From a virus: 64,000 nt of DNA. The position numbers were made by a program, and so were the translations under genes. Shown piece by piece: positions 10,544 through 39,400 of this stretch. The notes under the pieces were generated by a model. It had not been told where the DNA came from, made no database searches, and saw nothing but the letters and a program-made list of their open reading frames with translations. Positions within the stretch are counted from its first letter, which is position 1. The number at the start of each line of letters is the position of its first letter. The stretch covers positions 1 through 64,000 of IMG/VR virus record IMGVR_UViG_3300031952_000008; one strand, 5' to 3'.

Positions 10544-10855
10544 ATGAAAATTAATATAAGTGCTAAAGAAGTTATTATAATCATAATGGGTTTGTTACTT
10601 GTAGGTTCTGGAGTGGCGAACTTTAAAGTTTATGATTATGGAATGGATAAAGGAACTGAGAAAGGTATTTTATTAGGAGCCCAAAGTGCTACTTTAAAAA
10701 CACAGGACGATTGTGCCAGAACAATACTTTTCCTACATAATGTAACTCAGGATAATTATATTAAGTATATAATTGACCAGAATGCTACGGAACAGATTTG
10801 GTTAACAACAAAAACCTTACAGAATAATACGGAGAGTGATTTAAATGGAAATTAA
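10544..10855 (+). CDS. membrane-anchored hypothetical protein
   Basis: AGGTGA SD; N-terminal TM; several NxT sequons. Confidence 0.6.
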   Translation: MKINISAKEVIIIIMGLLLVGSGVANFKVYDYGMDKGTEKGILLGAQSATLKTQDDCARTILFLHNVTQDNYIKYIIDQNATEQIWLTTKTLQNNTESDLNGN

Positions 10856-22079: not shown

Positions 22080-22217
22080 TATATAGTAATTAAGGACGCT
22101 AAAAACAAGGTTAAATGCGTTCCTTTCTTAAAATATGGCTAAAGTTGAATGTTAAAGGGGATTGATTTCTTTGGCTTACAGCTAGTGGAACAATCTTATA
22201 AGCGAGGTTTAAACAAA

Positions 22218-23891
22218 ATGGAAATAAAAAAAGTTATGAAGGGAGTAGCGTTGGGGTCTTTAATGCTGGGTGCTACATTCTTAGCAGGATGTAACGGAGC
22301 AGTTATTGAACAGCAAAAGAACCAAATTGACGCTCTTAGTACAAAATTAGATAGTATGGCAACCAAGACAACAGGTCTTGAACAATCTGTATCAGATTTG
22401 ACTGATATAGCTAAAACACAGCAAGATATTGCTAAATCTATGGAATTGGCTAAAGAAGTTGCAGAGAAAAAGGCAACTGAAAACGATGCTAAAATCTTGG
22501 AAGATGCTAAATTAATAGAAGCATTACAAGGAGAGATAACAGGTCTTAAAGCTGAAGTTACTGTTGGTGCAGGAAGCGGAACAGGAAAAATTCTTGAAAT
22601 GGATTTTAATGAAGGCGAGAATACAACACTTGATGATTCAGACCTTGGTTTGATTAATGATGAAGTGGAATTTGATGGAGACGATTATGATGTTAAAGAG
22701 GAAGTAATCTTTACAGATGCTTTTAAACTAATGACATCAATAGAAGGCGATGAGAACTTTGCTGAGAAACCTTACTTGGTTACTACAGATGAAGGAGCTA
22801 TTGCTTACAAATACATTATAGAAGATGATTTGTTGGCTTCAGATATTTCCGAAGATGAACCATTGAACATAAAGTTCCTTGGTAAAGATATGGAAATTAT
22901 AAAAGCAAACAATGTTACTGGCGAGATAACTGTTAGAGAAGGAGCTAAATTCTTGATGGATGAAGGAGCAACCAAAACTATTACACTAGACGGAAAAGAC
23001 TATGTAGTCACCGTTGATTTTATTAGTGAAAATGGCGGAGCTAAATTTTCCATTAATGGACAAGTTACATCAACTCTAGATGAAGGCGAAACTGATGAGG
23101 CATCAGATATTGAAGTTTCTGTAATAGAAATCTTGGATAATGAAGCCGCTGAAGGAAGAGCAGACAAAGTAGAATTCTACCTAGGAGAGACTGTTTACAA
23201 AACAATCGCTGATGGGGACGAATATACTGAGGATGTTGAAGACTTTATCTATACAATAAAATTTGATGGAGCTAACCTAAGGAGTATCGGTGTCAGTTAT
23301 GATAGACAAGCAGATGACTTGGAAGACATCGAAGACGGTTTTGAACCTATCGCTATAGGAAAGGAATTAGTATTCCCTGAGGGTTATGTTAAAGTTAAAT
23401 TCTTGGGAGTTACAGATGTTAATTACAACCAATATGATTTGACACTTGAAGAACAAGGAGATACTCATATGCCAGTTGTTCAATTAGTATCTGATGACGA
23501 TAGAGGATTTAGTGTTGGTACTGAAGAAGTTAACAAGGTTAGAATTAATGCAACCAATGTTTTCTACAGGGATGACAATAATGATTGGATAACAGCAGAT
23601 TTGAATACATTAAAACTAACTTTTGAAGACACAGAATTAGGTGTAACTTATGTTGGTACAAAACTAAGTATCGGAAAATTAGATGTAGTTACTGACTTTA
23701 CAAAGTTAGGAGTTACAGAAGAACAATCCGAGCCTACAGAAATAGTCTATAACGGAGTTAGTCTAGGAACTAAAGAAGATAAAGTCTTGACAACTGATGG
23801 AGTTATCATAGCAGTAGAAGAGGATGAAGATAGATTCAGCTTCTCACTACCTGGTGATGACATCACAGGAGATGTTGAGGTTTATCAATAA
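22218..23891 (+). CDS. S-layer-like surface protein with lipobox-type signal peptide
   Basis: Signal ending FLAGC, coiled coil, then an acidic beta-rich body with IKFLGKDMEIIK and AKFSINGQVTSTLDEGET segments resembling euryarchaeal/DPANN S-layer proteins. Confidence 0.7.
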   Translation: MEIKKVMKGVALGSLMLGATFLAGCNGAVIEQQKNQIDALSTKLDSMATKTTGLEQSVSDLTDIAKTQQDIAKSMELAKEVAEKKATENDAKILEDAKLIEALQGEITGLKAEVTVGAGSGTGKILEMDFNEGENTTLDDSDLGLINDEVEFDGDDYDVKEEVIFTDAFKLMTSIEGDENFAEKPYLVTTDEGAIAYKYIIEDDLLASDISEDEPLNIKFLGKDMEIIKANNVTGEITVREGAKFLMDEGATKTITLDGKDYVVTVDFISENGGAKFSINGQVTSTLDEGETDEASDIEVSVIEILDNEAAEGRADKVEFYLGETVYKTIADGDEYTEDVEDFIYTIKFDGANLRSIGVSYDRQADDLEDIEDGFEPIAIGKELVFPEGYVKVKFLGVTDVNYNQYDLTLEEQGDTHMPVVQLVSDDDRGFSVGTEEVNKVRINATNVFYRDDNNDWITADLNTLKLTFEDTELGVTYVGTKLSIGKLDVVTDFTKLGVTEEQSEPTEIVYNGVSLGTKEDKVLTTDGVIIAVEEDEDRFSFSLPGDDITGDVEVYQ

Positions 23892-24723: not shown

Positions 24724-26226
24724 TTATTTGTATAGTACACAAATCTTAGAATATGTGGCACCAGCAAACATTTTTTTAATTCTAACCTTAAGTTGATTAC
24801 CAGCCGTTGTAAAAGTAAAAATTTGACCGGAACCAGGAACTATACCTTCCCAATTCAATCCATCATCATTACAAACTTCCCACTCATCTTCTTCTGTATC
24901 AGGATAGTTACCTAAATATCTAACCTCACATTGAGTAATATTGTTCTCCGAGGTTGTAGTAGGACTAGTAGCTTTTCCATCCGATGCAGGACTAGTAACT
25001 ATTAAATATCCTTGTTCAGAAACTTCGGTATTTTCATAGGTCCAAGTAGGAGTAGTAATTTCATTAATAAAATCAATAGTATAACTATTAGTCATATCAT
25101 TTAAATTAACAAAAGGTCTAATAACTTTTTCCGCATCAATTCTATCCTTAAACAATTTAGACATATTAATAGTTCTTTCATTAATATCAATGGTAGAATA
25201 GAACCCACCCTCATCCCAAATATGTGTTAAAGTTTGAATTCTATACCAACCCGAAACGCCACAATAAGGAACTTGACAATCTACTTGCTCCCCAGGGTTA
25301 AGAACCTGAAGACCTAAAGCAGATAAATTACCAAGGTCAGGAAGACTGGTTGTAATACTAAGTTCAGCATTAGCTTTTTCTTGAACAAGAGTCATATTTT
25401 TAAGAGTAGAATCTGAAACTACCTCATCCTTTCTCCAAACATCAGTTTGACTAGGAATATCTTCTTCCGTCTTTAAATAAACAATTCCGCCATCTTCTTC
25501 TCCATAAACAGTAACTCTATTTTTTAAAATATCATAATCTTTACCAAACCTATCTATTCCTTTAAGATTAACTCCAATAGCAATACTTGTTTCCTCACTT
25601 TTTATACTGTTTTGAGAAAAAACATGAAGGTCTCCGGTATTATCGATATAACAATCAGCATTGCACCTTTTACAAATATCTACTATAGCACTCCAACCAC
25701 TAACGTTAGAATAATTATTAGTAATCCTAGTAGTAAGTGCCGAAACATTTATATAAGTAACTACCCCACTAAAATGGTCATCAATAATGGCTTTTATTCC
25801 ATCACTACCTAATTGGTTAACTAATTCTTGAATAATTAATTGGTCGGATAATTCAGGACAACTTTTACTTTCTATATTAATTAAATAACCATTCATATCA
25901 AGACTGTATTGGCAATTAGTAACTTTTCCTTTAAAAATCTTAGTAGTTAAACCATCTTCATAATCTGCCCATATTTCTAATACATCACCAGCATCAAAAA
26001 TATCAAGCCATTCGCCTTCACTATTATCTAAAACAACTTCAGCAGTAGGAAGAGCCTCGGTGGCCGGAAGAATAACTCGGAAATTTAAGGCATAATCACT
26101 AACATCGTAAACCATACCAGTTTCGCCATCAGTAATCTTGATAGTTCTATAAGGAGTGGCGTAAGCATCACTAAGAAAGATAACACCATGTTCTCCTCTA
26201 TTATATCTATCGCTAGTATCTCCCAT
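24724..26226 (-). CDS. tail tip/baseplate hub-like protein
   Basis: KIFKGKV..YID..GDLH..LKNRVTVYG..LNPGEQV..YRIQTLTH pattern; distal end of the tail operon. Confidence 0.65.
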   Translation of the reverse strand: MGDTSDRYNRGEHGVIFLSDAYATPYRTIKITDGETGMVYDVSDYALNFRVILPATEALPTAEVVLDNSEGEWLDIFDAGDVLEIWADYEDGLTTKIFKGKVTNCQYSLDMNGYLINIESKSCPELSDQLIIQELVNQLGSDGIKAIIDDHFSGVVTYINVSALTTRITNNYSNVSGWSAIVDICKRCNADCYIDNTGDLHVFSQNSIKSEETSIAIGVNLKGIDRFGKDYDILKNRVTVYGEEDGGIVYLKTEEDIPSQTDVWRKDEVVSDSTLKNMTLVQEKANAELSITTSLPDLGNLSALGLQVLNPGEQVDCQVPYCGVSGWYRIQTLTHIWDEGGFYSTIDINERTINMSKLFKDRIDAEKVIRPFVNLNDMTNSYTIDFINEITTPTWTYENTEVSEQGYLIVTSPASDGKATSPTTTSENNITQCEVRYLGNYPDTEEDEWEVCNDDGLNWEGIVPGSGQIFTFTTAGNQLKVRIKKMFAGATYSKICVLYK

Positions 26227-26227
26227 T

Positions 26228-29200
26228 TTATTCTATCTCTCCAAAGGTATAAGCATCATCAGTTTCAACACATCCCGAGCACCTCTTAATGAACATAAAA
26301 TAAGGAAGTTCCACAAATCCTCCACCAGTACAACTGAAATTAGTATAAGTACTGATGTTCTTAACTTGGTTAATTCCTGTAAAATTCATAAATAACTGGG
26401 GAGTAGTATTTAAAATTATAGTATAATCATTACTTACAAACCTATTCTTGATACAAGTATTTGAAAGACTTTCATTATACCTAAGATAAACACTAAAATT
26501 ATCAGTTGAATGACTAGTCACATTCCAGAAAGGATTACCGCCCATAGGGGCAACATTCTTACTGGTTGCACTTTTAGGGGAAACATACCATTCATTCATT
26601 CCTTTAGGAATAATAGATATAGTAAAATTGGAAAGTAAAACACTAGCATATAAATCATCATCAAAATAGTATTTAGTTCCGCCAATATTATAAAATCCTC
26701 TAATTCTAAAGTTTTGACCGGATAGATTTCCAAAAATAAATCTTAAGTCTGAAAAATTAATATTACCATTTTGTGTAGTAGTTGTATTAAAAGGAACAGT
26801 TATTTCTCCGCTAGTTGGATTACTAACTCCTGTATAAATAACTATATTAGATAAATTAATTTGACTATCTTCTTCCGAAGTAAACCTTATTGGAATAGTA
26901 CAACTTCCTTCGGTCATACAATTACTTTGTATATAATGATTTAACTCTCCTCTATCCAAATTTAATACCCAAGAACTATTAAGTTCGCCATTATAATTAT
27001 GTGAATAATCAGAAGAATTACCTATATAAACTTTAAGATTATAAGGATACCTATTTGCTATAACTTCCTTATCACTACTATTTTTATTAAAATCCGAGTA
27101 AAGTTTAACGGAACAATTCCAAGTTTCCCCAACATGACTACCATTAACTTGTATGGTAGAATTATAATTATATTCTGTAGTTAAAGGAGGAATACCTATT
27201 TCATTTTCGGTATATTTAGCAGTAGTTCCATTATAAAAAGTAATATTTATATAATAAGGTCCCATAGCTTCTTCATCAATATCTATACCAATAGAACAAC
27301 TAAAATTTGAACTAGCATAAAACTTAGCCGAACCACTATTATCTTTTTTAATCAAATCTACCTTAGATATAGTACTCCAGAAATTATCATAAGTAACATT
27401 AGTATAACTTGTATCAAACGTAAAATCGCCCAAACTACCAGGAGTACTATTAGCAACAATTTTAGGAGAACTAATAGCAACATTAGTATCCAAAGCACTA
27501 ACAGGAGTAAAGTCCATATTCTGTAATAATAACCTAGTTGTTGTAATACTTAAAGTATTAGAAGGAGCAGTACCTAAATAAACTGTTGAGTTTTTAAATA
27601 TTACTTCGGGAGAGGTTATAATAGCTAAAGTATTATTATTTAATATAGATATTAATTGTGAATATTTCAATTCAAATAAGTCGCCAGTGGAAACAAGCAT
27701 AAAGGAACCATAAGAAGTAGAAGTATCGGAAACAAAAACAAGACTACTACCAGCATCCGCTATAAAATCCCCATAAGTTGTTAATATATTATTACCGCTT
27801 TCATCTCCTATAAATCCTATAGAAATTAAACTGGTATTATAAAAATCTATATCATCATAACTAATAAAACTAGTATCTCCTCCAGTAGTAGAAAATGAAC
27901 AACCAATACCAAAACCACCACCTGAAAGAGAAATATCGCTATCATTAAAAACTGTTTTATCATAAGTATAAAATTTTACATCTCCACCTTTACAACCATC
28001 ATCTCCTACATCATTACCACTAATACCTCCAACAGTAGTAAAGGTTGATTTATAAGAATTTATAGTATTATAAAAATAGGTATATACATCTCCTCCATCT
28101 CCACCATCTGCATCTCCACTATTTATACTTGCCGCATTTCCACCTTCTCCACCAGTAGCGGTTAAGATACCCTCGCATCGTTCATTAGAGTAAGATTCAT
28201 TATAACCATAATAATCTGCGTATATATGACCACCATTTCCACCATAAGACGCTCTACTAGTAAGATAATTACATTTAATAGCACCAGCATTACTACCTTC
28301 TCCAGCAGTTAATGTAACATCAAAATTGGTAATATTAGCATAGTTTTCGTAAAAATTATAATAAATATTTCCACCAACCTGTCCTTCTTCGACAGAATAA
28401 GCAGTACTACCTGTTCCACATCTAGAACAACAAACTGATGCATCATCAGGGTGAGCACCAGTAGAACTAAGTGTTGAATTTATTATTTTAATATCATAAA
28501 ATTGGAAAGTAATATTAGCATCTAAAGGAACATAACCCATAGTATTATCATCCGCGGTTCCGGTATCTCCAGTAGCACAACTAGTGGCACATTGTGCATC
28601 GTTATCTCCAGCATCGCCAGGAATCATAACTGTATCAAAATTATAAATATCATCGGTTCCATTACCTATATTTTCCCAAAATAAAGTACTTACTCCACCT
28701 TGACCGCCATTCGTATTTTCAGAAAGTTCACAAGTATCCCAACCATATGTACTATAGGCAATAACTCCATTTCCTCCATCTCCATTAGTAAAAGTCATAC
28801 TAACATCATCAATATTAGAAGTATTATCATAAATATAATAATAAGTTTTTCCACCAGCACCACCATTTGCACTAGCAGAAGTACAATTATCGGTAATAGA
28901 ACCAGTTTTGGCATTACCACCTTTTCCTCCTATCAATAAAATAGTTACATTATTAAGAGTTAAACTATGTGAAGCATTTAATATAAAAATAGCAGAACCA
29001 CCAGCACCACCCTCAGTTGCTATATTAGTAGGAGTAGAACCATCACCACCATTTCCACCTGTAATAGTAATTATAGCATCCTTAATTTCAATATCTTCTG
29101 CGGTAATATTTAAAATACCATCAATACCAGGATTTGGAGGAGAATAACCATTAGCACCATTATTACCAATAATAGTAATAATACCAGTAAGATAAACCTT

Positions 29201-29389
29201 TCCTTCACTTGTTCCTATTATTTCTTCATTATACAAAGAACCATTAGCATAAACACCATATTTGCCCGCATTAAAAGAAGTTAAATTAATATAAACTATA
29301 TGGTTACCTTCATGTGTATGAGTTGCACTAGTAAAATTAATTAATGAAAGCAATAATATTAATAATATTAATAAAGTTTTTTTAATCAT
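26228..29389 (-). CDS. large Gly-rich, sequon-rich protein with Sec-type signal peptide
   Basis: MIKKTLLILLILLLSLINFTSA; repeated GGxGG; many NxS/T. Confidence 0.75.
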   Translation of the reverse strand: MIKKTLLILLILLLSLINFTSATHTHEGNHIVYINLTSFNAGKYGVYANGSLYNEEIIGTSEGKVYLTGIITIIGNNGANGYSPPNPGIDGILNITAEDIEIKDAIITITGGNGGDGSTPTNIATEGGAGGSAIFILNASHSLTLNNVTILLIGGKGGNAKTGSITDNCTSASANGGAGGKTYYYIYDNTSNIDDVSMTFTNGDGGNGVIAYSTYGWDTCELSENTNGGQGGVSTLFWENIGNGTDDIYNFDTVMIPGDAGDNDAQCATSCATGDTGTADDNTMGYVPLDANITFQFYDIKIINSTLSSTGAHPDDASVCCSRCGTGSTAYSVEEGQVGGNIYYNFYENYANITNFDVTLTAGEGSNAGAIKCNYLTSRASYGGNGGHIYADYYGYNESYSNERCEGILTATGGEGGNAASINSGDADGGDGGDVYTYFYNTINSYKSTFTTVGGISGNDVGDDGCKGGDVKFYTYDKTVFNDSDISLSGGGFGIGCSFSTTGGDTSFISYDDIDFYNTSLISIGFIGDESGNNILTTYGDFIADAGSSLVFVSDTSTSYGSFMLVSTGDLFELKYSQLISILNNNTLAIITSPEVIFKNSTVYLGTAPSNTLSITTTRLLLQNMDFTPVSALDTNVAISSPKIVANSTPGSLGDFTFDTSYTNVTYDNFWSTISKVDLIKKDNSGSAKFYASSNFSCSIGIDIDEEAMGPYYINITFYNGTTAKYTENEIGIPPLTTEYNYNSTIQVNGSHVGETWNCSVKLYSDFNKNSSDKEVIANRYPYNLKVYIGNSSDYSHNYNGELNSSWVLNLDRGELNHYIQSNCMTEGSCTIPIRFTSEEDSQINLSNIVIYTGVSNPTSGEITVPFNTTTTQNGNINFSDLRFIFGNLSGQNFRIRGFYNIGGTKYYFDDDLYASVLLSNFTISIIPKGMNEWYVSPKSATSKNVAPMGGNPFWNVTSHSTDNFSVYLRYNESLSNTCIKNRFVSNDYTIILNTTPQLFMNFTGINQVKNISTYTNFSCTGGGFVELPYFMFIKRCSGCVETDDAYTFGEIE

Positions 29390-32300
29390 AGTAACTACCT
29401 GTAATATTTATAGTTGCATTTTTAACCACTCTAACTCCATCAGTAATAGCATTAATACTTACTTTGGATGTGCTTACATTTTTAGGAGAGGTAGGTGTAG
29501 TTGTGTTGCTAATTAAACTACTACCTGCATTAGTTAAATAAGCTTTTATAGGATTAATATCTAAATTTAAATCTTGAACCGAATAAGTAATGGAAAGGTC
29601 TGTTAAACTAACAAATCTCTCTCCATCAAAACTAACATTTATAGGGAAAGTACAGAAAGGAGTAGTACAACTTGATATAGCACTACTTATAAGTGAAGTA
29701 TTAAAATTAATAAGAACATAATTACTGCCACTGGTATCTATTGATATAGGAAGATTTCCTGTATAGTTATAATCACTAATACCATCATTACCTACATCTA
29801 AAGTAACATTGTGAGGCCTATTACCTAATCCATCAAAATATAAATTATATAAATAACTTTTCTTTGAGCTGGTAGGTTTTAAATTAGCTTTCCACATAAC
29901 ATCTGCTCCTGAAGTATTAAAACTTACATTTTCACTATTACTTGTATAAGTATTAAAAGGAATAGGAAACCAATTATTTCCATTATCATTAGAAATATAA
30001 AAGTTAAGGGTTGAAGTATTTAAATAATTTAATTGTTCTATACTAACTGTTAAACTAGTAATATTTGAACTATTAGAATCTAACCTTGTCGAATAAATCC
30101 AACAACTAGAAGCAACTCCGCTAATCTCACTACTATATTGATTAAAAAATGCATCAAAATCACAAGTAGTAGTTGAACTGTTTATATAATCTAAATCTTC
30201 GAAATCTTCATAATAAGTATCTTTAGAACTTTGTCCTCTCATTCTAACCGTAAATGTTGAAAAAGGAGTTGATGAAGGAACTTCTATATAAGCTAAACTA
30301 CTTGTTCTACTAGTCGAACTACCATTATCACTATGATAAAAGTCTGACCCAGATTCATTAAATTTATTAACACTAGAACTGGTAGTAGAAATCATACCTG
30401 ATAAGTTAATATCTACATAACCATCATCACCTATATCAATAGTTAAATCTTCAGGATATGTAATATAACTTAAACGTATAATGAAATCACTAAAAGTAAT
30501 ATTTCCTCCAGTAGTTACACTAATATTAAATGGGAAAGTATATATTCCATCAGTAACGGTTATGTTACCATTAGTTATCCAATTATTTAAATAACTTTCG
30601 TCCAAAACTATAGTTATAGAAGGCTGTAAATAGTTTTCTGAATTATAAATAGTAAGAGAATTTGTAATATTAGGAATAGTTACCGAAATATTATAAGCAC
30701 TACTAGATTGTACCATAAATTGAATACTAGCAAACTTTATATATTGAGTATTACCAGTTCCAGATTGTTGCCTTTTATCTCTAAGAGTTAAATTAAAAAT
30801 CATACTTCCATTATCTGTAAAATTATAAGTTTTTGAAGTAACCTCGTTATTATACATATCATCCCAACCAAAAAGAGTTTGGTCGGAGTTCAATCCTGAA
30901 ACATCTAAACTTGCCGAAGTAATAGTAATATAATTAGGCAACTCTACATAAAATGCTTCATAATTATATAATCTATATTTAAGTAATATACTGGTTGAAT
31001 TATCCGAAAATTCATTAATCTTATTAGTATTAATAAGAGAAAGGTCATAACTGGCATTAAAAGTAGTATTTGAAACTCCGATAAAATAATCTATTCCTTT
31101 ACCTACCATATAAACATCTGAACCTACACTTAAATTATCCGAATTAACACTAACAATACTAACATTAGCAGTAGTACCATACTCATAAGTTCTATTAGCA
31201 AACAAACCATCTAAATTAAGATAAACATTTCTATCTAAAACACCTATATAAAACGTTCTATTCTCTCCCCAACCAACGCTATTATTAGTTCCGATAGTAC
31301 AACTTGCTGTACCGTTATAATTAAGTGCTGAATGTAATATTAATACATTTTTTATGTCCCAATTCATAGCCTCTTCATAAAGGGAAGAGTATGCTTCTTC
31401 ATTATCAACCGTCGAACTCCATAAACTCTCATTATGTTTAGCTCCAGTTGTCCAATCAGCATCCCATATTTTTGAAGAGGACGCACTACTAGTTTGTGTA
31501 CCAAAACTAGCACCATAAACCAAAGGAGCAACAGTTTCCCAAGTACTTCCATTCCAACAATCTCCCCTAGAACTAGGAGAAACATAAGTAATATTATTTA
31601 ATTTCATTGTTGCTGTTGAACTACAAAAAGCGGCACCATTAGTGATTCTACTAGCATAGGCTGATGTTTTTACAAAAATATTTCCGGTTAATGAACTAAT
31701 ATCAACGTTTCCAGAACTTATCCCCGAATAATTATAGTACCAATGGGTAGAATTAAGTTTTTCTATAATAAAATTATTACCTGCGTGAGAATATGAAGCA
31801 CCGCCATCACATTCCGCAACTATACCATCAGTATAAATAGTAACATCATTAGTTAGATTTGTGAAGATTATTCTTGTATAGATATTTGTAGATTCGCTGT
31901 GAGCACAAGCACCACATTGACCTGACATACTAAGGTTGTATAAAGTAATCTTAGATTTTAAAGCTATTTTTAAAGGGTCTATTGTACCATTTGTATAAAT
32001 ATCCATTTGACCATATTCATTAGTTCTACCAGTATCCATATAGGCACCAGCATCTAATTGAAGATAACCATTTACAATATAACTACCGGAACCATAAGTT
32101 GATTGGGCGGAATAATTATAAAACTTACTCAAATTAAGAGTTGAAGGTATAAAATTATCAAAAAGGAAAGGAGTTATACTAGAATAAAACCTATATTGTA
32201 AATTATTTTGTGACCAACAATCGGAAGGTATTGAAAAGTTTTTATCTATAGCCTGTCCACTAGATATATTATATCCATATTTTACACGCCACGAACTAGT

Positions 32301-35099
32301 ACTCATACTATTGATTAGTTTAGAATAATTAATATAAACATAGGAATCTGTATTAGTCGAATAATAATTTCCGGTACTTAATCCACCACAAACAGTAGAT
32401 ACATTAGCAGTTTCTTGATAACAAATATTAGGAGAATCTACTCCCAAAATTTCACAATCTACCTGGCTGGTATTTTCGGCCTGGATACTGAAAATAAACT
32501 CATTAGTTACTGGAGCAGTAACGTAATCTGAAAGATTAGTAATGTAAGTATAACTATTAAAGTTTTCCATTAAAGTAATATTCGAAATATTAACTACCCA
32601 AACCGGAACATCATTTACATATATAACATTTATACCAAGAGTTTGGTTAAGTCCATTAGCTCCTATGCTATCATTAACACCAATAATACAAGTTGCGTTA
32701 CCATACCAACCAAAAAAAGGAGATAATATAAGATTATTACCTGTTATATTACAATCTACCTGGCTAGTATTCTCGGATTTAATACTAAAAGTGGTACTAT
32801 ATCCGCCAGTATCATTAACATAACTAGAAAGGTTAGTAAGATAAGTGATGGTTGAACTATATTCATTAACTGAAATATTAGAAATGTTATAAAGCCAATC
32901 TATTTTAACATAAGTAAAATTAAGACAACCACTACTAGTATCTATATTTTGGTCGGCATAATTGACGCAATGTACATAAAGACAGTGATTGCCACCAGTA
33001 TAAGTATCAAAAACTGTGTAAGCATGAGAAGTAGTAGTTGTTGTGGCGAATTTATAATTGGGATTAGTAGCGACAGCGGTAGAATAATTAAGGTTGGTAT
33101 CTACTACTCCGGAACAATTAGCATTTTGACCAGTAGTTAAAGTAAGACTAAGAGTGTTACTATTTATAATAACATTTCCGTTACTATTCCAAAGAGTTCT
33201 ATTTCCTTCACTAAATACTGAACTTGTAATATTATAATTAGATATATTAGTATATGGGTGAATAGTTAAAGTAAAATTAGCTGGAGCTTGAAAACAAAAA
33301 CCAAGTATGTCACAAACTTCTACATTCCAATACCAAAGGTTGTTATCAGAAAGTGTTGCCTCAATTAAGTTAGCCGAGTTATTAACAACAGCACTAGCAT
33401 TAACTACATCTCCATGCCCACTCCAGATATGAAGTGTGGCATTAGAAATATTATTAACATAAGATTTAGGAGTATAACTAAAATTTAAAGTAATATTAGA
33501 AGTATAAGTTGTATTTGCTGGACTATTAAGAGTTACACTTATGTTTCCAGAAGCTCCACTTCCTACTGTGAAAGTATAATAGTTTCCACTGTTATTATTC
33601 AAAGCCGAGTCCCAACAACTAACATTATAATAATACTGACCATTGGAGAGACTAACTGCCTGACTAACATTACTCGCATTATAACTTTTATAATTGAATT
33701 GTGTAGTATTACCACTATCATAAACCCAAGAAACAGATTGAGGGTTATTATTTGTTGGAGTTCCTGTCTTAGTATAGTTTATACTTATCATGTTCCATGC
33801 TGATGCATGAGGTGCTCCTGAGTATATTCCTTTTAACCAAGTAATTGAACCATTGGTGAAAGGAAATCCTGAAGCTAAATTAGAATATGTGCAAGAACCC
33901 TCAGCTACCACTGGCATATCTAAAGAAAGATTTGTATTTGCTGGAAGATTAAAACTTCCTACAGCACTCGTTCCACTTCTTGTCCAATTAATAGGGTTAG
34001 TTCCATTATCATAAATAAATCTTTGAGTAGTCCTACCTAAGTTTTGCTCACCGCCACCAACAATATCATAAAATATACCTGTTATAGTAATATTTTCAGT
34101 GGCTCTTATTTTAATACCGCAAGAACCACCTCCAGAAGGGTCTCCCCAATCTAAATTTACACCATGAATAGCGGTTTCATTAACATAAGTAGTAACATTA
34201 TTCCAATTAACTATGCTACAATTTCCTCCAGCTTCATCAAGAGATAAATTAATAGCATTAACAGGAGAGCTTGTTGAACCATTGGCTGGAACAAAAGTTG
34301 TGATGTTTGGTGGTGTTATATCCCATCCATTTCCGCCACCATACAATGTTGCTATATCTCCTCCACAAATAGCATCTAATGAACAACTTGCATCATTTAT
34401 AGAATTATTAAAAAAATAATATTCATCAATGCTGACATTACCACTACCACTAGTTCCAGCACCTTGTCTATTAACACTTAAAAAGGTAGTTCCAACATTT
34501 TTAGCGTGAGCCCAAGATTCTCTATAAACACCATCTATGTATAAATATCCAATATTCGAACCCCATCTTAAAACTAAATGATGCCATTTTCCATCACTAA
34601 ATTCTGTTGTAAGTGATTCATCTGTTTGCCAATCATTACCTCCACCATAACCAGAGATTATAACATTATTAGAACTATCAAACCCAAATTGCACAAGTTG
34701 ATTTGTTGTATAAGTTCCAAAAGCAGTAAAATAACCATAATTATCTGCTGTTTGAAAAGGTCCATTGAACCACAATGATACTGTCCAATTACTTGCTCCT
34801 GAAGGTAAACCTGTTGGAGAAGCTTTGTTTGCATAATTAGTAATTCCACTACTAAAATTAACTGCTTTCCCACCACCAACACCAGTTATTTGATAAGTTG
34901 GAGAACCATACGCAGTTAAATTATTAATTCCATATTTCCCAGTTCCGTAATCTGTTATATTGCCACTGGTATCATTAAATGCCCAATAAGCTACTATATT
35001 CGCATTAGTTAAAGCACTAACCATACTTGCCATCACAAGTGATAAGATAAACATTAATCCAATTAAAAAAAATGATTTAAACTTCATTAGTAACACCAA
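29382..35099 (-). CDS. 1905-aa surface adhesin-like protein (signal peptide, LamG, Ig/cadherin-like repeats)
   Basis: Hydrophobic signal ..MVSA; LamG motifs WTVSLW, DGKWHHL, LYIDG, IDE; duplicated ENTSQVDC module; dozens of NxS/T. Confidence 0.8.
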   Translation of the reverse strand: MVLLMKFKSFFLIGLMFILSLVMASMVSALTNANIVAYWAFNDTSGNITDYGTGKYGINNLTAYGSPTYQITGVGGGKAVNFSSGITNYANKASPTGLPSGASNWTVSLWFNGPFQTADNYGYFTAFGTYTTNQLVQFGFDSSNNVIISGYGGGNDWQTDESLTTEFSDGKWHHLVLRWGSNIGYLYIDGVYRESWAHAKNVGTTFLSVNRQGAGTSGSGNVSIDEYYFFNNSINDASCSLDAICGGDIATLYGGGNGWDITPPNITTFVPANGSTSSPVNAINLSLDEAGGNCSIVNWNNVTTYVNETAIHGVNLDWGDPSGGGSCGIKIRATENITITGIFYDIVGGGEQNLGRTTQRFIYDNGTNPINWTRSGTSAVGSFNLPANTNLSLDMPVVAEGSCTYSNLASGFPFTNGSITWLKGIYSGAPHASAWNMISINYTKTGTPTNNNPQSVSWVYDSGNTTQFNYKSYNASNVSQAVSLSNGQYYYNVSCWDSALNNNSGNYYTFTVGSGASGNISVTLNSPANTTYTSNITLNFSYTPKSYVNNISNATLHIWSGHGDVVNASAVVNNSANLIEATLSDNNLWYWNVEVCDILGFCFQAPANFTLTIHPYTNISNYNITSSVFSEGNRTLWNSNGNVIINSNTLSLTLTTGQNANCSGVVDTNLNYSTAVATNPNYKFATTTTTSHAYTVFDTYTGGNHCLYVHCVNYADQNIDTSSGCLNFTYVKIDWLYNISNISVNEYSSTITYLTNLSSYVNDTGGYSTTFSIKSENTSQVDCNITGNNLILSPFFGWYGNATCIIGVNDSIGANGLNQTLGINVIYVNDVPVWVVNISNITLMENFNSYTYITNLSDYVTAPVTNEFIFSIQAENTSQVDCEILGVDSPNICYQETANVSTVCGGLSTGNYYSTNTDSYVYINYSKLINSMSTSSWRVKYGYNISSGQAIDKNFSIPSDCWSQNNLQYRFYSSITPFLFDNFIPSTLNLSKFYNYSAQSTYGSGSYIVNGYLQLDAGAYMDTGRTNEYGQMDIYTNGTIDPLKIALKSKITLYNLSMSGQCGACAHSESTNIYTRIIFTNLTNDVTIYTDGIVAECDGGASYSHAGNNFIIEKLNSTHWYYNYSGISSGNVDISSLTGNIFVKTSAYASRITNGAAFCSSTATMKLNNITYVSPSSRGDCWNGSTWETVAPLVYGASFGTQTSSASSSKIWDADWTTGAKHNESLWSSTVDNEEAYSSLYEEAMNWDIKNVLILHSALNYNGTASCTIGTNNSVGWGENRTFYIGVLDRNVYLNLDGLFANRTYEYGTTANVSIVSVNSDNLSVGSDVYMVGKGIDYFIGVSNTTFNASYDLSLINTNKINEFSDNSTSILLKYRLYNYEAFYVELPNYITITSASLDVSGLNSDQTLFGWDDMYNNEVTSKTYNFTDNGSMIFNLTLRDKRQQSGTGNTQYIKFASIQFMVQSSSAYNISVTIPNITNSLTIYNSENYLQPSITIVLDESYLNNWITNGNITVTDGIYTFPFNISVTTGGNITFSDFIIRLSYITYPEDLTIDIGDDGYVDINLSGMISTTSSSVNKFNESGSDFYHSDNGSSTSRTSSLAYIEVPSSTPFSTFTVRMRGQSSKDTYYEDFEDLDYINSSTTTCDFDAFFNQYSSEISGVASSCWIYSTRLDSNSSNITSLTVSIEQLNYLNTSTLNFYISNDNGNNWFPIPFNTYTSNSENVSFNTSGADVMWKANLKPTSSKKSYLYNLYFDGLGNRPHNVTLDVGNDGISDYNYTGNLPISIDTSGSNYVLINFNTSLISSAISSCTTPFCTFPINVSFDGERFVSLTDLSITYSVQDLNLDINPIKAYLTNAGSSLISNTTTPTSPKNVSTSKVSINAITDGVRVVKNATINITGSYYD

Positions 35100-36063
35100 A
35101 AGCTATCTTATCAAGACTGGTAAGTTTAGAAACTCCTTTATCTATTTCATATTGTCTAAAAGGATACTCTATCCAATTACGGTCTCCTACTGGTACAGAC
35201 ATTTCATTTAATGTATTATTAAAAATGTTTATATTAGGATTAATAATAGTTTTATTTCCGATAATCACTCCAGTTTTAAGTTTTGAAGTGTCTGAAACCA
35301 CTTCCGAAACTATACTCTTTTCTTCCACAACCTTAATTATAGTAACGTTCTTAATATCATAATGGTCGATTTGTGAGATAATATAATCATAACATTTAAG
35401 AACGGTTTTGTTAATGGTACAATCATAACAATGCATAGAAACGTTCTTGGATTGGTCAATACTACAAATATTAGTTAAAGTAACATTTTTATAAACCGGA
35501 GTAGAATCTATAGAGGTTTCGGTAACGTTCTTATAAGTAATTACTTCCCTCTCCACAGTCTTGTTAGTAAACGTGTACGACCAACTCGCCCATAAGGGGT
35601 CCACAGATACTTTACTAACTACAAAGCTCCACTTATAATATGCAGGTTGTGTGGCGTGTCCTACTAATTTGTTCAAATTATTCTTCCCACTCCAACAATA
35701 ACCATCATAGATAATTGTCCAATTCTTACTAAGCGAACCTGTCTTAGCTTTTTTAACATACCAATCTACAGTAATATTAGGGTTAGTACTAACTATATTA
35801 GATATTTTATTTAAATTAACCCAAACAGTAGTACTGTAAGGTTTTTTATATAAGTAATTACTGTTATTAGAGTATTCAAAACAAATTTTGGAAGAAGTAT
35901 TTACCGTAACAAACGCTTCACAAGTTAACCCATTACAAACCACGTCACCACTACTTATAAACTTAACCCCAGTAAGTAGGAAAAGGAAAGCAAATAATCC
36001 AACCAAGCCAACTGTAGCCCCTCCAGCTAACATCTGTTTATTTATAGTGCTATAAGTAGCCAT
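35077..36063 (-). CDS. membrane-anchored sequon-rich protein
   Basis: N-terminal TM (VGLVGLFAFLFLLTGV), Cys pairs, many NxT/S. Confidence 0.7.
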   Translation of the reverse strand: MATYSTINKQMLAGGATVGLVGLFAFLFLLTGVKFISSGDVVCNGLTCEAFVTVNTSSKICFEYSNNSNYLYKKPYSTTVWVNLNKISNIVSTNPNITVDWYVKKAKTGSLSKNWTIIYDGYCWSGKNNLNKLVGHATQPAYYKWSFVVSKVSVDPLWASWSYTFTNKTVEREVITYKNVTETSIDSTPVYKNVTLTNICSIDQSKNVSMHCYDCTINKTVLKCYDYIISQIDHYDIKNVTIIKVVEEKSIVSEVVSDTSKLKTGVIIGNKTIINPNINIFNNTLNEMSVPVGDRNWIEYPFRQYEIDKGVSKLTSLDKIAFGVTNEV

Positions 36064-36455
36064 TAGTCACCGGACCATTCTATCAAACTTAAGGAAAATT
36101 GAAAATGATTGAATACTCTATCTGCTGAATCGTCAAACGTTAAACCTTCGTTTTCTACGCAAAAACTCCCAACAATCCTACCATCATTGTAGTCGTGCTT
36201 CTTTCCATCTTGTAAACTTTCTAGTTTCTCCCTAATCTGTTCTTTAGTAGTAGCACCAGTAGAATAAATTATTCCATTTAACTGTATTCTCCAATCTAAA
36301 GCATCCATGCCAGGAATCTCATGTTTCGCTATCCTTTTACCTAAGGTTTGTTTAATAGTAGCAGTAACCTTAACAGGAGAGATACCAGTGACTAGCAATC
36401 CAACGGTTCCAAATAAAACTTCATTAACATCATCATAAGACGCAATCGTAATCAC
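36063..36455 (-). CDS. distal-tail-like protein
   Basis: Position right after the tape measure; small beta-rich protein ending FSLSLIEW. Confidence 0.55.
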   Translation of the reverse strand: MITIASYDDVNEVLFGTVGLLVTGISPVKVTATIKQTLGKRIAKHEIPGMDALDWRIQLNGIIYSTGATTKEQIREKLESLQDGKKHDYNDGRIVGSFCVENEGLTFDDSADRVFNHFQFSLSLIEWSGD

Positions 36456-36458
36456 CCA

Positions 36459-39400
36459 TTAATAAGATTGTAATTCTTTCCTAATCTGCCTAGCTATCTC
36501 GTTCGCCGAAACATTAGACCCACTTACATTAACAGTAACATTAATATTATTACCCATTTTACCTAGTTTACTTAATGGAATAACAGCTTCCGGACCTTTT
36601 TCGCCAATCATAGCACGAGTAGGACCATTAACTATTCCTCCTTCAGCAAAACCAAAAAAGCTTCTTATAAAATTAGGAACAATAGTGTCCATAACATTGG
36701 TACCCATATTCTTTAAAAAATCTGTAGGACCCATAATTTGAAACCCCGGTTGCGTTTCTTTTCTATTAGCAATTTCATTAGCAGCCTGAAAATTATTCAT
36801 ATCGAAAGGATTATAAAAAGGAACACTATTAACAACGCCAGGTCCCGCTGGAGTAGTATAATTAACACCAGTATTTTGTATAACAGCATTATCTATTACG
36901 CCTTCAGCTATTGTTTTTTTATCTTCTAATTTATTAATATCTTTCTCTTTTTTATCAACTTGTATTGCTTTTTTATCTTCATACTCTCTTCTTTCCTGTT
37001 CTAACGTAGCTTCTTCCGTTCTTAATTTAGCCACTTCAGCAGCCGCACTAGCATAAGCGGCCATTTCAGTTTTTAATAATTCAACAACTTGAGACGAATT
37101 AACTGTAATCTGGTTAGTTTTATCCTCTTCTTCCATCATAAAACCTTTAACATTATTATGCATGTCCCCATAATATACATCATAAGCTAACTGTAATTTA
37201 TTAACGAACTGAGATTGAGTACTGGTATTACCACCACCCATATTAAGATTATTAATACCTAAAAGAGCAGTTTGCCAAGTCTTAACTCTATCAGTAACAT
37301 CAGCATTAAGAGACTCCCCAGCAGAAACCTCAGCTTTAATAGCTGTTTCTATAGTAGTTTTCCAAGCATCATAAGCATTAGCACTATCTTCGGAATTTTC
37401 AATAACCGTTTCCTGTTGGGCTATTAAATCATCAAAACTATCTCCCACTCTACTAAGTTGGGATTGAATAAATGCACCAGCATCAGCTATACCAAGTTCT
37501 AAAAGCTTCTGTTTCTTCATCCAAATATCTACTTTATCAAGTAACCCTAAAATAACTGTTTCACCAGTAAATCTTTGGGTGGATAGTGTAGAAATATTCT
37601 TTTGTGCATCAGAAGCCGCTCTACCAAAATCTTCTAAAGAAGACCTTACATCTCTTAATTGATTAGCATTATCTTTTAAAGTATCATTCCATTTTTCATT
37701 AATATCTTTAAGATTTTGTTGTTCAGTTACTAACTGGTCGTCTATATTAACTATTGAAATTTTAGCATTTGTAACACTTTCTAAAAGTTTAAGTTGTTGT
37801 TGATAAACAAGATTATCCCTAATTCTAACATCTATAGATTCAAAAGTAGAAGTAATAAGTTCTTTTTGAGCATCAGCCTCTTCATTAATAGCTTTTATTC
37901 TAGTAATTAAAGAAGGATTACCTTTTTCTGTCCAATCAACTAAAGATTTAAGAGAATCAGTAGATTTTCTATTAGCAATATCAATCGCAGTTTGTGTTAC
38001 AAATAAATCTTGATTATTTTTAATATTAGTTCCAGAAACTCCAGATTCCATAGGTGCTTTAAATAAATCGGTTACCATCTGATAAGCTTTTTCTGTATCC
38101 TTCATCAATTCAGGAATCCACCAAAAAGGATTGACTAAATCTGCTAAATCTAATAAAGCAGAATAAGCAACTACACTCCAACGACCAACATCTCTTAAAA
38201 ACGAACCAATTTCTTCATGATGAACTTGAATATTTTTTGCCGAACCACTCATACTAATCGAAAACTTGTCAAGAGTTCCACTAGCACCTTCTATACCTTT
38301 AGTCATATCGGAAATGGCTCCATTATTAAGTAAAATCTTTTCAGTAGCTAAAGCAACCGAGGTAGCGACTCTTCTTTCAAAAATATCACCCATAGCTTCT
38401 AATTTAGTACTCATATCACCTTGACCTAAGGAAATAGCTAATTGAGTAAAAACATCATTTAAACCAACAAAATCGCCATTAGAATCATAAATAGCAACTC
38501 CTAATCTTTCCATTTGTTCTCTAGCTTTTGGAGATTCATTAGTAACAGCGGCTAATATACCTCTAATAGCTGTACCTGCCATCTCTCCTCTAATACCTGC
38601 ATCAGATAACATGGCAATAGTTGATAATAGTTCTTCAAACCCAACACCAGCCGCATAAGCTGTTGGACCAGCATATTTCATAGCTTCGGCTATAGTATCC
38701 ATACTTGCCGCACTATTAATATCGGCATAAGTAAGTTTATCAGCAACCTCAGCCGCTCTTTCGGCAGTCATATTAAACTGATTCAAAACCATTGTAACAA
38801 CATCGGTAGCAGAAGATAATTCTACTTGTGAAAATGTAGCTAATTTAGTAGAAGTAGCCATTATCTTATCAGATTCGGCCTTATCGAAACCTCTTTTAGT
38901 AACATCCAAATAAGCTTCTGCAATTTGGTCTAAACTATAAATAGTTCCTTGTTGTAATCTATTGATAGCTTCAAGAGAAGCACCTGAAGAAGTTTGAGTA
39001 ACTGCGGCAATACGAGCAATAGTCATTTCATACTTAACAGCAGGTTCTATTAATCTACTCCAAACCATACCACCTAAATTAATAACTAAAAAAGCATTAA
39101 CTAATGCCCACCTAAAATGGGTCATTTTACCTAAGAAAGAATCTATTGCACTCTCCGATTTTTTAATTTGTTCAGGAAATTTAACACCAATTTCTTGTCC
39201 GGCATTTTTAACATTTTCAGTAATCTCACTTTTTAAAACTCTAGCAAAAGTACCAAAAGAAGCGGCTTGTTCAATAGGTTTAAGTTTTGCAAACTCAGCA
39301 CTCATTCTTTGAGCTTCAACACTATTTTTTCTAGCGGCCAATGCCAATTCATTAAATTTTTGAGCCAAATCTACTGTAGATTTAGAAGTTTTAACACTTT

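What the first reader, a model, noticed from the sequence alone, without database searches (positions are those of the whole stretch)
26228..36063. Three exported, sequon-rich giant surface proteins occupy the tail-fibre position
Seen: between the distal-tail-like and hub-like genes lie 328-, 1905- and 1053-aa proteins, translationally coupled (overlapping or abutting). All have N-terminal signal or TM segments, many Cys and dense NxS/T sequons, unlike the neighbouring tail proteins. Established: tailed virions assemble in the cytoplasm, and archaeal N-glycosylation (AglB) acts on exported proteins. So these should not be ordinary tail fibres. Inference: either (a) late-expressed cell-surface adhesins that attach the infected cell to new cells or partners, or (b) receptor-binding parts that are secreted, glycosylated and added to the virion outside the cytoplasm. 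Either would be unusual for a head-tail virus.
Basis: partly seen in the sequence, partly recalled or inferred. Interest (0 to 1): 0.82.

Follow-up and report, generated by a model that had tools for sequence, protein, structure and literature searches.

The report
Exported glycoprotein trio in virus tail-tip operon
An uncultivated archaeal head-tail virus and its relatives encode, between the tail tape-measure and baseplate-hub genes, three adhesin-type proteins that appear built for secretion and sugar-coating, which is puzzling because tailed virus particles are assembled inside the cell.

Summary
The window is part of a 94-kb IMG/VR virus record. Its genes point to an archaeal host: RadA, PolB and NrdD, and the capsid protein's only GenBank match is an Altiarchaeum virus.

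On the minus strand, tape measure, a 130-aa gene, P0001 (328 aa), P0002 (1901/1905 aa), P0003 (1053 aa) and P0004 (500 aa) overlap or abut. P0004 matches baseplate hubs by fold.

P0002 and P0003 start with Sec-type signal peptides; P0001 has an N-terminal membrane anchor. N-x-S/T sequons occur at twice the composition-shuffled expectation (z 2.8, 8.0, 5.3). The reversed motif and the neighbouring tail proteins are at chance.

The P0003 family has 39 clusters. Nearly every full-length member keeps a signal peptide, the sequon excess, several sequon positions and four Cys pairs. In seven of the eight related metagenomic loci a P0003 homologue lies just upstream of a hub homologue. The block is therefore ancestral, not a recent host insertion. 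Sugar-synthesis clusters accompany it.

P0003 folds as a long right-handed beta-helix followed by beta-sandwich domains; P0002 carries a LamG domain.

Whether the proteins join the virion outside the membrane or act on the infected cell surface remains open. This scan has noted similar exported fibre-like genes in other archaeal viruses. I found no paper describing this.

The parts
36459..39521 (-). Tail tape-measure protein (1020 aa). It marks the upstream side of the module.
   Evidence: PF10145 PhageMin_Tail, E 1.4e-37; 24 PHROG matches, most annotated tail length tape measure protein. Sequons at chance, no Cys, no hydrophobic 19-mer.
36063..36455 (-). 130-aa protein in the position of a distal tail protein (identity unverified).
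   Evidence: No Pfam, PHROG or NCBIfam hit. No sequon. Its stop overlaps the P0001 start by 1 nt.
35077..36063 (-). P0001, 328 aa: N-terminal membrane anchor (about residues 11-31), then a sequon-bearing ectodomain with 8 Cys and a conserved C-terminal GDRN...R.YE motif.
   Evidence: Five homologues, most of them keeping the N-terminal hydrophobic segment. A homologue stands first in the same gene order in L010. 12 sequons against 5.9 expected; NxT 9 against 2.9.
29382..35087 (-). P0002, 1901 aa from the ATG at 35087 (1905 aa from the TTG at 35099): Sec-type signal peptide, LamG domain at residues 97-236, a long beta-rich body, and a C-terminal ~80-aa module shared with P0003.
   Evidence: PF13385, 36.9 bits, above the cut-off. 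100 sequons against 51.6, z 8.0. hhalign 91% probability between P0002 1761-1845 and P0003 781-859. Homologous C-terminus upstream of the P0003-like gene in L006; in L008 the P0002 hit falls within the P0003-like ORF itself (shared module). Partial homologue P0009 has a signal peptide and sequon z 11.7.
26228..29389 (-). P0003, 1053 aa: signal peptide (1-22), right-handed parallel beta-helix (about 29-665), Ig/CBM-like beta-sandwich (666-779), and a conserved Cys-paired C-terminal region (780-1053).
   Evidence: AF2 with 29 homologues: pLDDT 79.8, pTM 0.70. VIA-align Z 19.6 (Vag8), 16.7 (EtpA), 16.3 (Pam1 tailspike); Z 10-11 for the sandwich. Family of 39 clusters with conserved signal peptides and sequon excess. 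Conserved sequon columns and Cys pairs.
24724..26226 (-). P0004, 500 aa: baseplate hub / Tal-like protein with a C-terminal beta-sandwich domain; no signal peptide; last gene of the module.
   Evidence: PF06605, E 5e-6, below the cut-off; phrog_1887 'tail protein', 6e-8. Foldseek gave 60 PDB hits at E<=1e-3, and nearly all those listed are gp27/gp44/VgrG-type hubs, including the HFTV1 tail chain and 80alpha Tal. The model is poor, however (pLDDT 56). Homologues lie just downstream of the P0003 homologue in 7 loci. Sequons at chance.
56371..64000 (+). Virus-encoded sugar-synthesis cluster. It runs on to about genome position 67343, beyond the window. It holds five GT4/GT1-type glycosyltransferases, two DegT aminotransferases, a hexapeptide acyltransferase, two methyltransferases and a radical-SAM/SPASM enzyme. 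It is a candidate source of a virus-specific glycan.
   Evidence: Comparable clusters converge on the hub gene in relatives L008, L009 and L010. No STT3/AglB, Wzx-type flippase or GT41 in the 94-kb record.
18398..19426 (+). GDP-mannose 4,6-dehydratase, a further sugar-nucleotide enzyme near the module.
   Evidence: PF16363, E 1.5e-112.

Best explanation
The three genes are an ancestral, conserved part of the tail-tip gene module of a lineage of uncultivated archaeal siphoviruses. They encode its host-attachment apparatus, made as secretory glycoproteins.

Supported by computation here: they are co-transcribed and translationally coupled with the tape-measure and hub genes. P0002 and P0003 carry cleavable Sec-type signal peptides, and P0001 carries a membrane anchor. 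N-glycosylation sequons and Cys pairs are under selection. P0003 is a beta-helix plus beta-sandwich protein and P0002 carries a LamG lectin-type domain, which are the usual building blocks of adhesins and tailspikes.

Inferred: late in infection the proteins are exported through the host Sec system. The host oligosaccharyltransferase (AglB) N-glycosylates them, possibly with a glycan altered by the virus's own sugar enzymes. They fold with disulfides outside the membrane. They are held there by P0001 and/or by the space under the cell's surface layer. Fibre-less particles built in the cytoplasm would then acquire them on the hub when the membrane ruptures at lysis. This resembles the independent assembly and late addition of tail fibres known from phage T4.
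For: Operon anatomy and coupling. TMP and hub identities. Signal peptides and anchor, conserved in position but not in sequence in nearly all full-length members of the 39-cluster P0003 family, in the L006 and L010 homologues, and in most P0001 homologues. Forward-only twofold sequon excess. Sequon columns kept in up to 22 of 29 family members, and four conserved Cys pairs. Beta-helix adhesin/tailspike fold. LamG. A P0003 homologue lies just upstream of a hub homologue in 7 of the 8 related loci, with P0002-like or P0001-like genes in the same order in L006 and L010. All of these proteins diverge to a similar degree, 24-37% identity. This fits a core structural module, not a dispensable moron. 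No other receptor-binding candidate lies in the structural module. Sugar clusters sit beside the module in relatives.
Against: No tailed virus is known to receive virion parts from outside the cytoplasmic membrane, and the topology requires lysis before assembly can finish. No known tail-attachment domain was detected in any of the three. The hub has its own well-modelled C-terminal beta-sandwich domain that could serve as the sole receptor-binding part, as proposed for verdandiviruses (bioRxiv 10.1101/2021.07.29.453957). In that case the virion would not need the trio. No co-folding, proteomics or SignalP run was possible. The host is unknown.
Confidence: 0.45

Rival explanations
1. The trio is exported and glycosylated but never becomes part of the virion. 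It would remodel the surface of the infected cell late in infection. Possible roles are masking or destroying the receptor (superinfection exclusion, or stopping progeny from sticking to debris), or gluing the infected cell to partner or host cells. The last role would be attractive if the host is a symbiotic DPANN-type archaeon.
For: This is the simplest reading of the topology: signal peptides, anchor, sequons and Cys pairs all fit cell-surface proteins. The closest structural matches to the P0003 beta-helix are secreted bacterial adhesins: Vag8 Z 19.6, EtpA Z 16.7, HMW1 Z 15.0. The hub has its own candidate binding domain. The virus also encodes a separate lipoprotein-like exported protein next to the module.
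Against: Seven of the eight P0003-family loci whose context could be read lie next to a hub gene, and the eighth contig (L011) ends before a hub could appear; none is in a plainly cellular context. The genes sit inside the tail operon, between tape measure and hub, with overlapping stops and starts. They diverge at the same rate as the hub. Accessory morons usually have their own promoter and a patchy distribution.
Confidence: 0.33
2. The hydrophobic N-termini are not used for export. The proteins would be ordinary cytoplasmically assembled tail fibres, and the sequon excess would reflect cytoplasmic glycosylation by the virus's own glycosyltransferases or mere ancestry from surface proteins.
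For: Position in the tail module. The virus carries at least five soluble GT4-type glycosyltransferases. Virus-encoded cytoplasmic glycosylation of virion proteins is known from my own knowledge for chloroviruses and mycobacteriophages. Medvedeva et al. note that archaeal virion proteins are often glycosylated.
Against: The n-h-c signal architecture with small -3/-1 residues is kept in more than 25 homologues while its sequence drifts, which points to selection for export. No HMW1C/GT41-type sequon-specific cytoplasmic N-glycosyltransferase is present in the record. Conserved Cys pairs suggest extracytoplasmic disulfides. Drs3 tail proteins show that ordinary archaeal fibres lack both features.
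Confidence: 0.1
3. The proteins are a Sec-exported egress or entry enzyme set. In this reading they are beta-helix polysaccharide lyase/hydrolase-like envelope depolymerases, analogous to Sec-dependent phage endolysins.
For: The beta-helix also matches PL6 alginate lyases, polygalacturonases and phage depolymerases at Z 10-12.5. No lysis gene was recognised in the window. Signal-peptide endolysins exist in phages such as fOg44 (my own knowledge).
Against: No catalytic family was detected by Pfam, PHROG, NCBIfam or PDB sequence searches. The best fold matches are non-enzymatic adhesins. The 1901-aa LamG giant and the anchored P0001 are not explained.
Confidence: 0.07

Closest known systems
Tail-tip module of siphoviruses (tape measure, Dit, Tal/hub, fibres), e.g. 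Haloferax tailed virus 1 (PDB 9H4P) and phage 80alpha
   Same: Tape measure followed by a hub with a gp27/gp44-like fold. Large beta-helix and lectin-domain proteins are encoded alongside the hub, as in tailspike- and fibre-bearing phages. In HFTV1 the fibres anchor on the hub N-terminus (bioRxiv 10.1101/2024.12.09.627619).
   Different: Here the candidate fibres lie between the tape measure and the hub, not after the hub. They carry Sec signal peptides or a membrane anchor and a selected sequon excess. The word 'signal peptide' does not occur in the main text of the HFTV1 structure paper, and the tail proteins of methanogen virus Drs3 have neither feature.
Phage tailspikes and depolymerases with right-handed beta-helix (cyanophage Pam1, CBA120 TSP2, HK620)
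   Same: The fold of P0003 residues about 29-665 matches: Z 16.3, 13.0 and 12.0. It is followed by carbohydrate-binding-type sandwiches.
   Different: No recognisable N-terminal particle-binding domain. There is a cleavable signal peptide instead. No sequence similarity. Trimer state unknown.
Secreted bacterial beta-helix adhesins (Bordetella Vag8, ETEC EtpA, Haemophilus HMW1, TibA)
   Same: These are the best structural matches to the P0003 beta-helix: Z 19.6, 16.7, 15.0 and 11.5. They are exported and adhesive, and HMW1, EtpA and TibA are glycoproteins (my own knowledge).
   Different: Those proteins use autotransporter or two-partner secretion across a bacterial outer membrane and cytoplasmic glycosyltransferases. 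No translocator, TPS partner or GT41 was found here. The context is a virus tail operon in an archaeal-type virus.
Archaeal Sec-exported N-glycoproteins (S-layer proteins; adhesin-like proteins of Methanobacteriales)
   Same: Signal peptide, sequon richness and beta-helix/Ig/LamG-type modules. Beta-helix ALPs are described in PMC11532034.
   Different: No C-terminal membrane or PGF-CTERM-type anchor. The family was seen only next to virus hub genes. No sequence relation to any named cellular family.
Virion glycosylation cassettes of viruses (mycobacteriophage and chlorovirus type; archaeal virion glycoproteins)
   Same: The virus carries its own multi-enzyme sugar cluster, which co-occurs with the candidate glycoproteins in several relatives.
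   Different: In those systems glycosylation is cytoplasmic and is not tied to classical sequons on signal-peptide proteins (my own knowledge). Here the substrates look like targets of the host's extracytoplasmic oligosaccharyltransferase.

Membership tests
Siphovirus tail-tip module | Tape-measure protein | tested here: met
   PF10145, 129.9 bits (cut-off 33.2); 24 PHROG matches, most annotated tail length tape measure protein.
Siphovirus tail-tip module | Baseplate hub / Tal with gp27-like fold | tested here: met
   Foldseek gave 60 PDB hits at E<=1e-3, and nearly all those listed are hubs (diffocin, HFTV1, Mu gp44, T4 gp27, 80alpha). The model has pLDDT 56 and TM-scores of 0.2-0.4. The Pfam PF06605 hit is below its cut-off.
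Siphovirus tail-tip module | Distal tail protein (Dit) after the tape measure | tested here: inconclusive
   The 130-aa gene is in the right place but has no family hit.
Phage tail fibre / tailspike (virion receptor-binding protein) | Beta-helix or lectin-type receptor-binding body | tested here: met
   P0003 beta-helix, Z 16.3 to the Pam1 tailspike. P0002 LamG, PF13385, above the cut-off.
Phage tail fibre / tailspike (virion receptor-binding protein) | N-terminal domain that docks on the baseplate; protein made and assembled in the cytoplasm | tested here: inconclusive
   The N-termini are signal peptides or an anchor. No known anchor domain was detected, but a new one cannot be excluded.
Phage tail fibre / tailspike (virion receptor-binding protein) | Presence in the virion | not testable with these tools
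   This needs virion proteomics or cryo-EM.
Archaeal Sec-exported N-glycoproteins | Tripartite N-terminal signal peptide | tested here: met
   Heuristic n/h/c analysis of P0002 and P0003. The AF2 model gives a separate N-terminal helix at residues 2-17. Conserved in nearly all full-length homologues. SignalP was not available.
Archaeal Sec-exported N-glycoproteins | N-x-S/T sequons under selection | tested here: met
   Twofold excess, z 2.8, 8.0 and 5.3. The reverse and neighbouring motifs are at chance. Family members have z 3-10. Conserved sequon columns.
Archaeal Sec-exported N-glycoproteins | Glycan actually attached by AglB | not testable with these tools
   No OST is encoded by the virus. 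The host is unknown.
Archaeal Sec-exported N-glycoproteins | C-terminal cell anchor (TM or PGF-CTERM) | tested here: not met
   P0002 and P0003 have no hydrophobic segment beyond the N-terminus. Only P0001 is anchored, and at its N-terminus.
Autotransporter / two-partner-secretion adhesins | Beta-barrel translocator or TPS domain plus partner | tested here: not met
   No such Pfam or NCBIfam domain in the three proteins. Only the passenger-type beta-helix fold is shared.
Cytoplasmic sequon-specific N-glycosylation (HMW1C / GT41) | GT41 N-glycosyltransferase gene | tested here: not met
   No PF13844 match in the 94-kb record. The record is about 82% complete, so absence is not absolute.
Sec-dependent endolysins / depolymerases | Recognisable catalytic domain | tested here: inconclusive
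   No catalytic family was found by sequence. The beta-helix resembles lyases at Z 10-12.5, but adhesins score higher.

The most novel reading that the evidence does not exclude
A head-tail virion is completed outside the cytoplasm. Its receptor-binding fibres would be exported by the host Sec system and N-glycosylated by the host oligosaccharyltransferase with a glycan tailored by the virus's own sugar cluster. They would be retained under the cell's surface layer by a virus-encoded membrane anchor (P0001). They would dock on the baseplate hub only when the membrane ruptures. This route would be shared by several lineages of uncultivated archaeal tailed viruses.
Probability: 0.35. Interest if true: 0.9.

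Novelty: new variant of a known kind. Interest (0 to 1): 0.72.

Why it matters
Tailed viruses (Caudoviricetes) are taken to assemble entirely in the cytoplasm. Here a module of secretory, N-glycosylated adhesin-type proteins is wired into the tail-tip operon and conserved across a virus lineage, together with private sugar-synthesis genes. That suggests one of two things. Some archaeal tailed viruses may finish their particles outside the membrane, using the host's protein export and glycosylation machinery. Or they may invest a fifth of their structural operon in remodelling the infected cell's surface. Either way the result bears on how archaeal viruses recognise glycosylated cell envelopes. 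It also gives a concrete, testable gene set: signal peptides with predicted cleavage sites, conserved sequons, and a hub partner. This scan has flagged similar genes in several other archaeal viruses, so the phenomenon may be general and under-described.

Tried and rejected
- **Recent host-derived insertion:** rejected. The same order (P0001-like, P0002-like, P0003-like, hub) occurs in relatives at 24-37% identity, and in seven of the eight related loci the P0003 homologue lies just upstream of a hub homologue.
- **Sequon density as a by-product of Asn/Ser/Thr-rich, low-GC composition or beta-strand periodicity:** rejected by shuffles and by the reversed and offset motif controls, and by the Drs3 control.
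- **Sequon-rich ORF 859..1344 as a fourth glycoprotein:** rejected. Its sequons come from a tandem C[ND]NST[GW] repeat, and it has no signal peptide.
- **Virus-encoded OST, flippase or GT41:** none found.
- **Searches that gave nothing:**
  - Single-sequence and alignment scans of viral contigs with P0004, P0005, A1 and A4.
  - A back-translated motif scan, which gave one chance hit on the wrong strand.
  - Both genome-contig scans, so the host was not identified.
  - GenBank phages with P0003.
  - PDB sequence searches.
  - ESM Atlas: no usable hit for P0003, and only generic LamG leads at about 0.8 for P0002.
  - Foldseek of the whole P0003 model, which gave only weak local matches.
- **Literature:** searches found no paper describing signal-peptide tail-module proteins in archaeal tailed viruses. 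The Medvedeva 2023 methanogen-virus compendium was not found in the library, so overlap with its 'adhesin-like proteins' could not be checked.

Full report
**Context**

The window is the first 64 kb of a 94,280-bp IMG/VR virus record, about 82% complete by CheckV. GC content is about 31%. The plus-strand arms encode:
- an archaeal-type RadA (HhH + Rad51 domain, 257 bits), family-B DNA polymerase, an intein-bearing DNA methylase, anaerobic ribonucleotide reductase NrdD and GDP-mannose 4,6-dehydratase;
- an 11-kb sugar-synthesis cluster with five GT4/GT1-type glycosyltransferases, two DegT aminotransferases, a hexapeptide acyltransferase, two methyltransferases and a radical-SAM/SPASM enzyme. 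The large terminase lies just beyond it.

The minus-strand block is a siphovirus morphogenesis module: portal, capsid protein, tail tube, two small chaperone-sized genes and the tape measure. The capsid protein's only match among 50,697 GenBank phage records is 'Altiarchaeum virus Altivir_8_HURL', at 26% identity. The virus is therefore archaeal-type, from an anaerobic, low-GC host. I could not identify that host; both genome-contig scans were empty.

Downstream of the tape measure (36459..39521) lie, in order:
- a 130-aa gene;
- P0001 (328 aa);
- P0002 (1905 aa from a TTG; more likely 1901 aa from the ATG at 35087, the length of the database entry P0008);
- P0003 (1053 aa);
- P0004 (500 aa).

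They overlap or abut by 1, 11 and 8 nt, with a 1-nt spacer before P0004. Each start has a GGTG/AGGT/GGAGA-type ribosome-binding site.

P0002 and P0003 open with a basic n-region, a 13-16-residue hydrophobic core and a small-residue c-region (VSA|L and TSA|T). P0001 has a roughly 21-residue hydrophobic anchor after ten residues. No other protein of the structural module has such a segment.

Sequons number 12, 100 and 40, against 5.9, 51.6 and 21.2 in composition-preserving shuffles (z 2.8, 8.0, 5.3). The excess is directional. [ST]-x-N, N-[ST], N-x-x-[ST], D-x-[ST] and Q-x-[ST] are at or below chance. So are sequons in the tape measure, the hub, the 130-aa protein and a neighbouring lipoprotein-like protein. 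The rest of the proteome has 145 sequons against 121 expected.

Cys frequency is no higher than in the hub or capsid protein.

**The features are conserved, so they are selected**

A full HMMER scan of 1.84 billion representatives found 39 clusters related to P0003, most of them 1000-1250 aa and aligned to the very C-terminus. Nearly every full-length member begins with a canonical signal peptide whose sequence varies freely. It is followed by a conserved mature N-terminus (DC.L.GNHY.CTG). Forward sequon z-scores are 3-10, while reverse-motif z-scores hover around 0.

In the 29-sequence alignment, individual sequon columns are kept in up to 22 of 29 members at about 25% overall identity. Eight Cys columns form four near-invariant pairs. 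P0001 has five homologues, most of which keep the N-terminal anchor and a GDRN...R.YE motif. P0009, a partial homologue of P0002, has a signal peptide and 82 sequons against 28 expected.

As a control, the tail proteins of the cultured methanogen siphovirus Drs3 have no hydrophobic N-termini, and their sequons are at chance.

**The block is ancestral and tied to the hub**

A scan of JGI metagenome contigs with a family alignment returned eight related loci, with GC of 30-36%. In seven of them tblastn places a P0004 homologue just downstream of the P0003 homologue. The exception is L011, whose contig ends a few hundred bases after the P0003-like hit. L006 also carries a P0002-like C-terminus upstream. 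In L008 the P0002 hit falls inside the P0003-like ORF itself, which reflects the module the two proteins share. L010, from a 53.5-kb contig, has a P0001-like anchored protein, then a 1249-aa signal-peptide protein combining P0002-like and P0003-like parts (72 sequons against 27 expected), then the hub.

In two relatives a homing endonuclease (HNH or Vsr-like) has been inserted between the P0003-like gene and the hub. This underlines that the surrounding order is the conserved state. Identities are 24-37% for the secreted proteins and the hub alike.

In L008, L009 and L010 a sugar cluster converges on the hub gene. These clusters contain GT4 enzymes, methyltransferases, an epimerase/dehydratase, DegT, a radical-SAM enzyme and a phosphodiesterase. 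This echoes the window's own clusters. The virus record itself encodes no STT3/AglB, no Wzx-type flippase and no GT41. Any N-glycosylation would therefore use host machinery.

**What the proteins look like**

P0004: the AlphaFold model is poor (pLDDT 56). Even so, Foldseek returns 60 PDB hits at E<=1e-3. Nearly all those listed are baseplate hubs or spikes, including the HFTV1 tail, Mu gp44, T4 gp27 and 80alpha Tal. The C-terminal 120 residues form a confident beta-sandwich.

P0003, modelled with 29 homologues (pLDDT 79.8, pTM 0.70), has:
- an N-terminal helix, the signal peptide;
- a right-handed parallel beta-helix at about residues 29-665;
- an Ig/CBM-like sandwich at 666-779;
- a further beta-rich C-terminal region.

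VIA-align places the beta-helix closest to secreted bacterial adhesins (Vag8 Z 19.6, EtpA 16.7, HMW1 15.0) and to phage tailspikes (Pam1 16.3, CBA120 TSP2 13.0). Polysaccharide lyases score lower, around Z 12. The fold alone therefore cannot separate 'adhesin' from 'tailspike'.

P0002 has a LamG domain above the Pfam cut-off. It also shares an ~80-aa Cys-paired module with P0003 (hhalign probability 91%). No Pfam, PHROG, NCBIfam or PDB sequence match explains the rest.

**Interpretation**

Two layers should be kept apart.

With high confidence (about 0.85), these are Sec-exported, N-glycosylated adhesin-type proteins, and they are a core, ancient component of this lineage's tail-tip gene module.

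What they do after export is inferred. I favour virion fibres that are added to the hub outside the membrane at lysis (0.45). The family was seen only beside hub genes. It sits inside the tail operon with overlapping stops and starts. It evolves at the same rate as the hub. It also supplies the only large receptor-binding-type proteins in the module. Independent fibre assembly with late attachment is established for phage T4 (my own knowledge). Large glycoproteins could be retained under an S-layer or by P0001 until the membrane ruptures.

The main rival (0.33) is that they stay on the infected cell, for receptor masking or destruction, or for cell-cell adhesion. Its support comes from the topology, from the adhesin-like best fold matches, and from the hub's own candidate binding domain. 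Verdandiviruses are described as having a hub with an adhesin domain (bioRxiv 10.1101/2021.07.29.453957).

Two rivals are weaker. Non-functional signal peptides with cytoplasmic glycosylation (0.10) is contradicted by the conservation of the signal architecture and by the absence of GT41. A Sec-exported lytic enzyme set (0.07) has no detected catalytic family.

**Relation to what is known**

The HFTV1 cryo-EM study describes a hub carrying three ordinary fibres and does not mention signal peptides. Papers on Asgard and nanohaloarchaeal viruses note glycosyltransferases, lectins and adhesin domains, but I saw no mention of exported tail-module proteins in the passages read. Four full-text searches found no description of this arrangement. 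The Medvedeva 2023 methanogen-virus compendium was not found in the library, so I could not check it.

Within this scan, similar notes exist for other genomes: e1-3282277, e1-370412, e1-4901513, e1-5982572, e1-6002618, e1-5985687 and e1-5926322. These are unchecked AI notes and were not used as evidence. They do suggest the pattern recurs in several archaeal virus lineages. I rate the finding a new variant of a known kind (virus adhesin/fibre modules), with a real chance of a categorically new assembly route.

**Limits**

- No SignalP, multimer prediction or proteomics was available.
- The host is unknown.
- The 130-aa 'Dit' is unverified.
- The hub model is of low confidence.
- Most of P0002 remains unmodelled, because it exceeds the size limit for structure prediction.

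Noticed in passing
window 859..1344 (+): A 161-aa ORF with about 13 tandem hexapeptide repeats C[ND]NST[GW] (15 Cys, 15 sequons, z 7.8) and no signal peptide. Its C-terminal half weakly matches T4-like Y01A (PF25693, E 6e-4). The sequon excess here is a repeat artefact, not evidence of glycosylation.
   Followed up: partly
window 22149..23891 (+): A 580-aa, highly acidic protein with an internal Met followed by MEIKKVMKGVALGSLMLGATFLAGC (lipobox-like LAGC) and a coiled-coil stalk. It has no Pfam family, and its sequons are at chance (3 against 3.1). It is a second exported virus protein, convergent on the hub gene, and is not sequon-enriched.
   Followed up: partly
window 56371..64000 (+), continuing to genome position 67343 (L002 371..11343): An 11-kb virus-encoded sugar pathway: five GT4/GT1 enzymes, two DegT, a hexapeptide acyltransferase, two methyltransferases and a radical-SAM/SPASM enzyme. 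Similar clusters lie next to the hub gene in relatives L008, L009 and L010.
   Followed up: partly
window 55689..56207 (+); L006 3430..4005; L010 4644..5354: An HNH homing endonuclease in the window has a homologue inserted between the P0003-like and hub genes of relative L006. L010 has a Vsr/DUF559-type endonuclease at the same spot. The tail-tip module is thus a landing site for homing endonucleases.
   Followed up: partly
window 10845..11462 (+); L012 1857..2468; L013 2074..2259: A transglutaminase-like cysteine protease (PF01841). Its homologues (41-47% identity) lie directly downstream of the hub gene in two relatives. This suggests a link with the tail or egress module that has been relocated in this genome.
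   Followed up: no
window 15271..16965 (+): An N6/N4 DNA methylase interrupted by an intein with a LAGLIDADG endonuclease. Relative L006 5700..7466 also carries an intein-containing gene.
   Followed up: no
window 47957..48988 (-): The major capsid protein's only match in GenBank phage records is Altiarchaeum virus Altivir_8_HURL (BK059162), at 26% identity over 91% of the query. The virus lineage is otherwise unrepresented there.
   Followed up: partly
window 9038..9976 (+) and 19514..21310 (+): A virus-encoded archaeal-type RadA and an anaerobic ribonucleotide reductase NrdD. These point to an anaerobic archaeal host.
   Followed up: no
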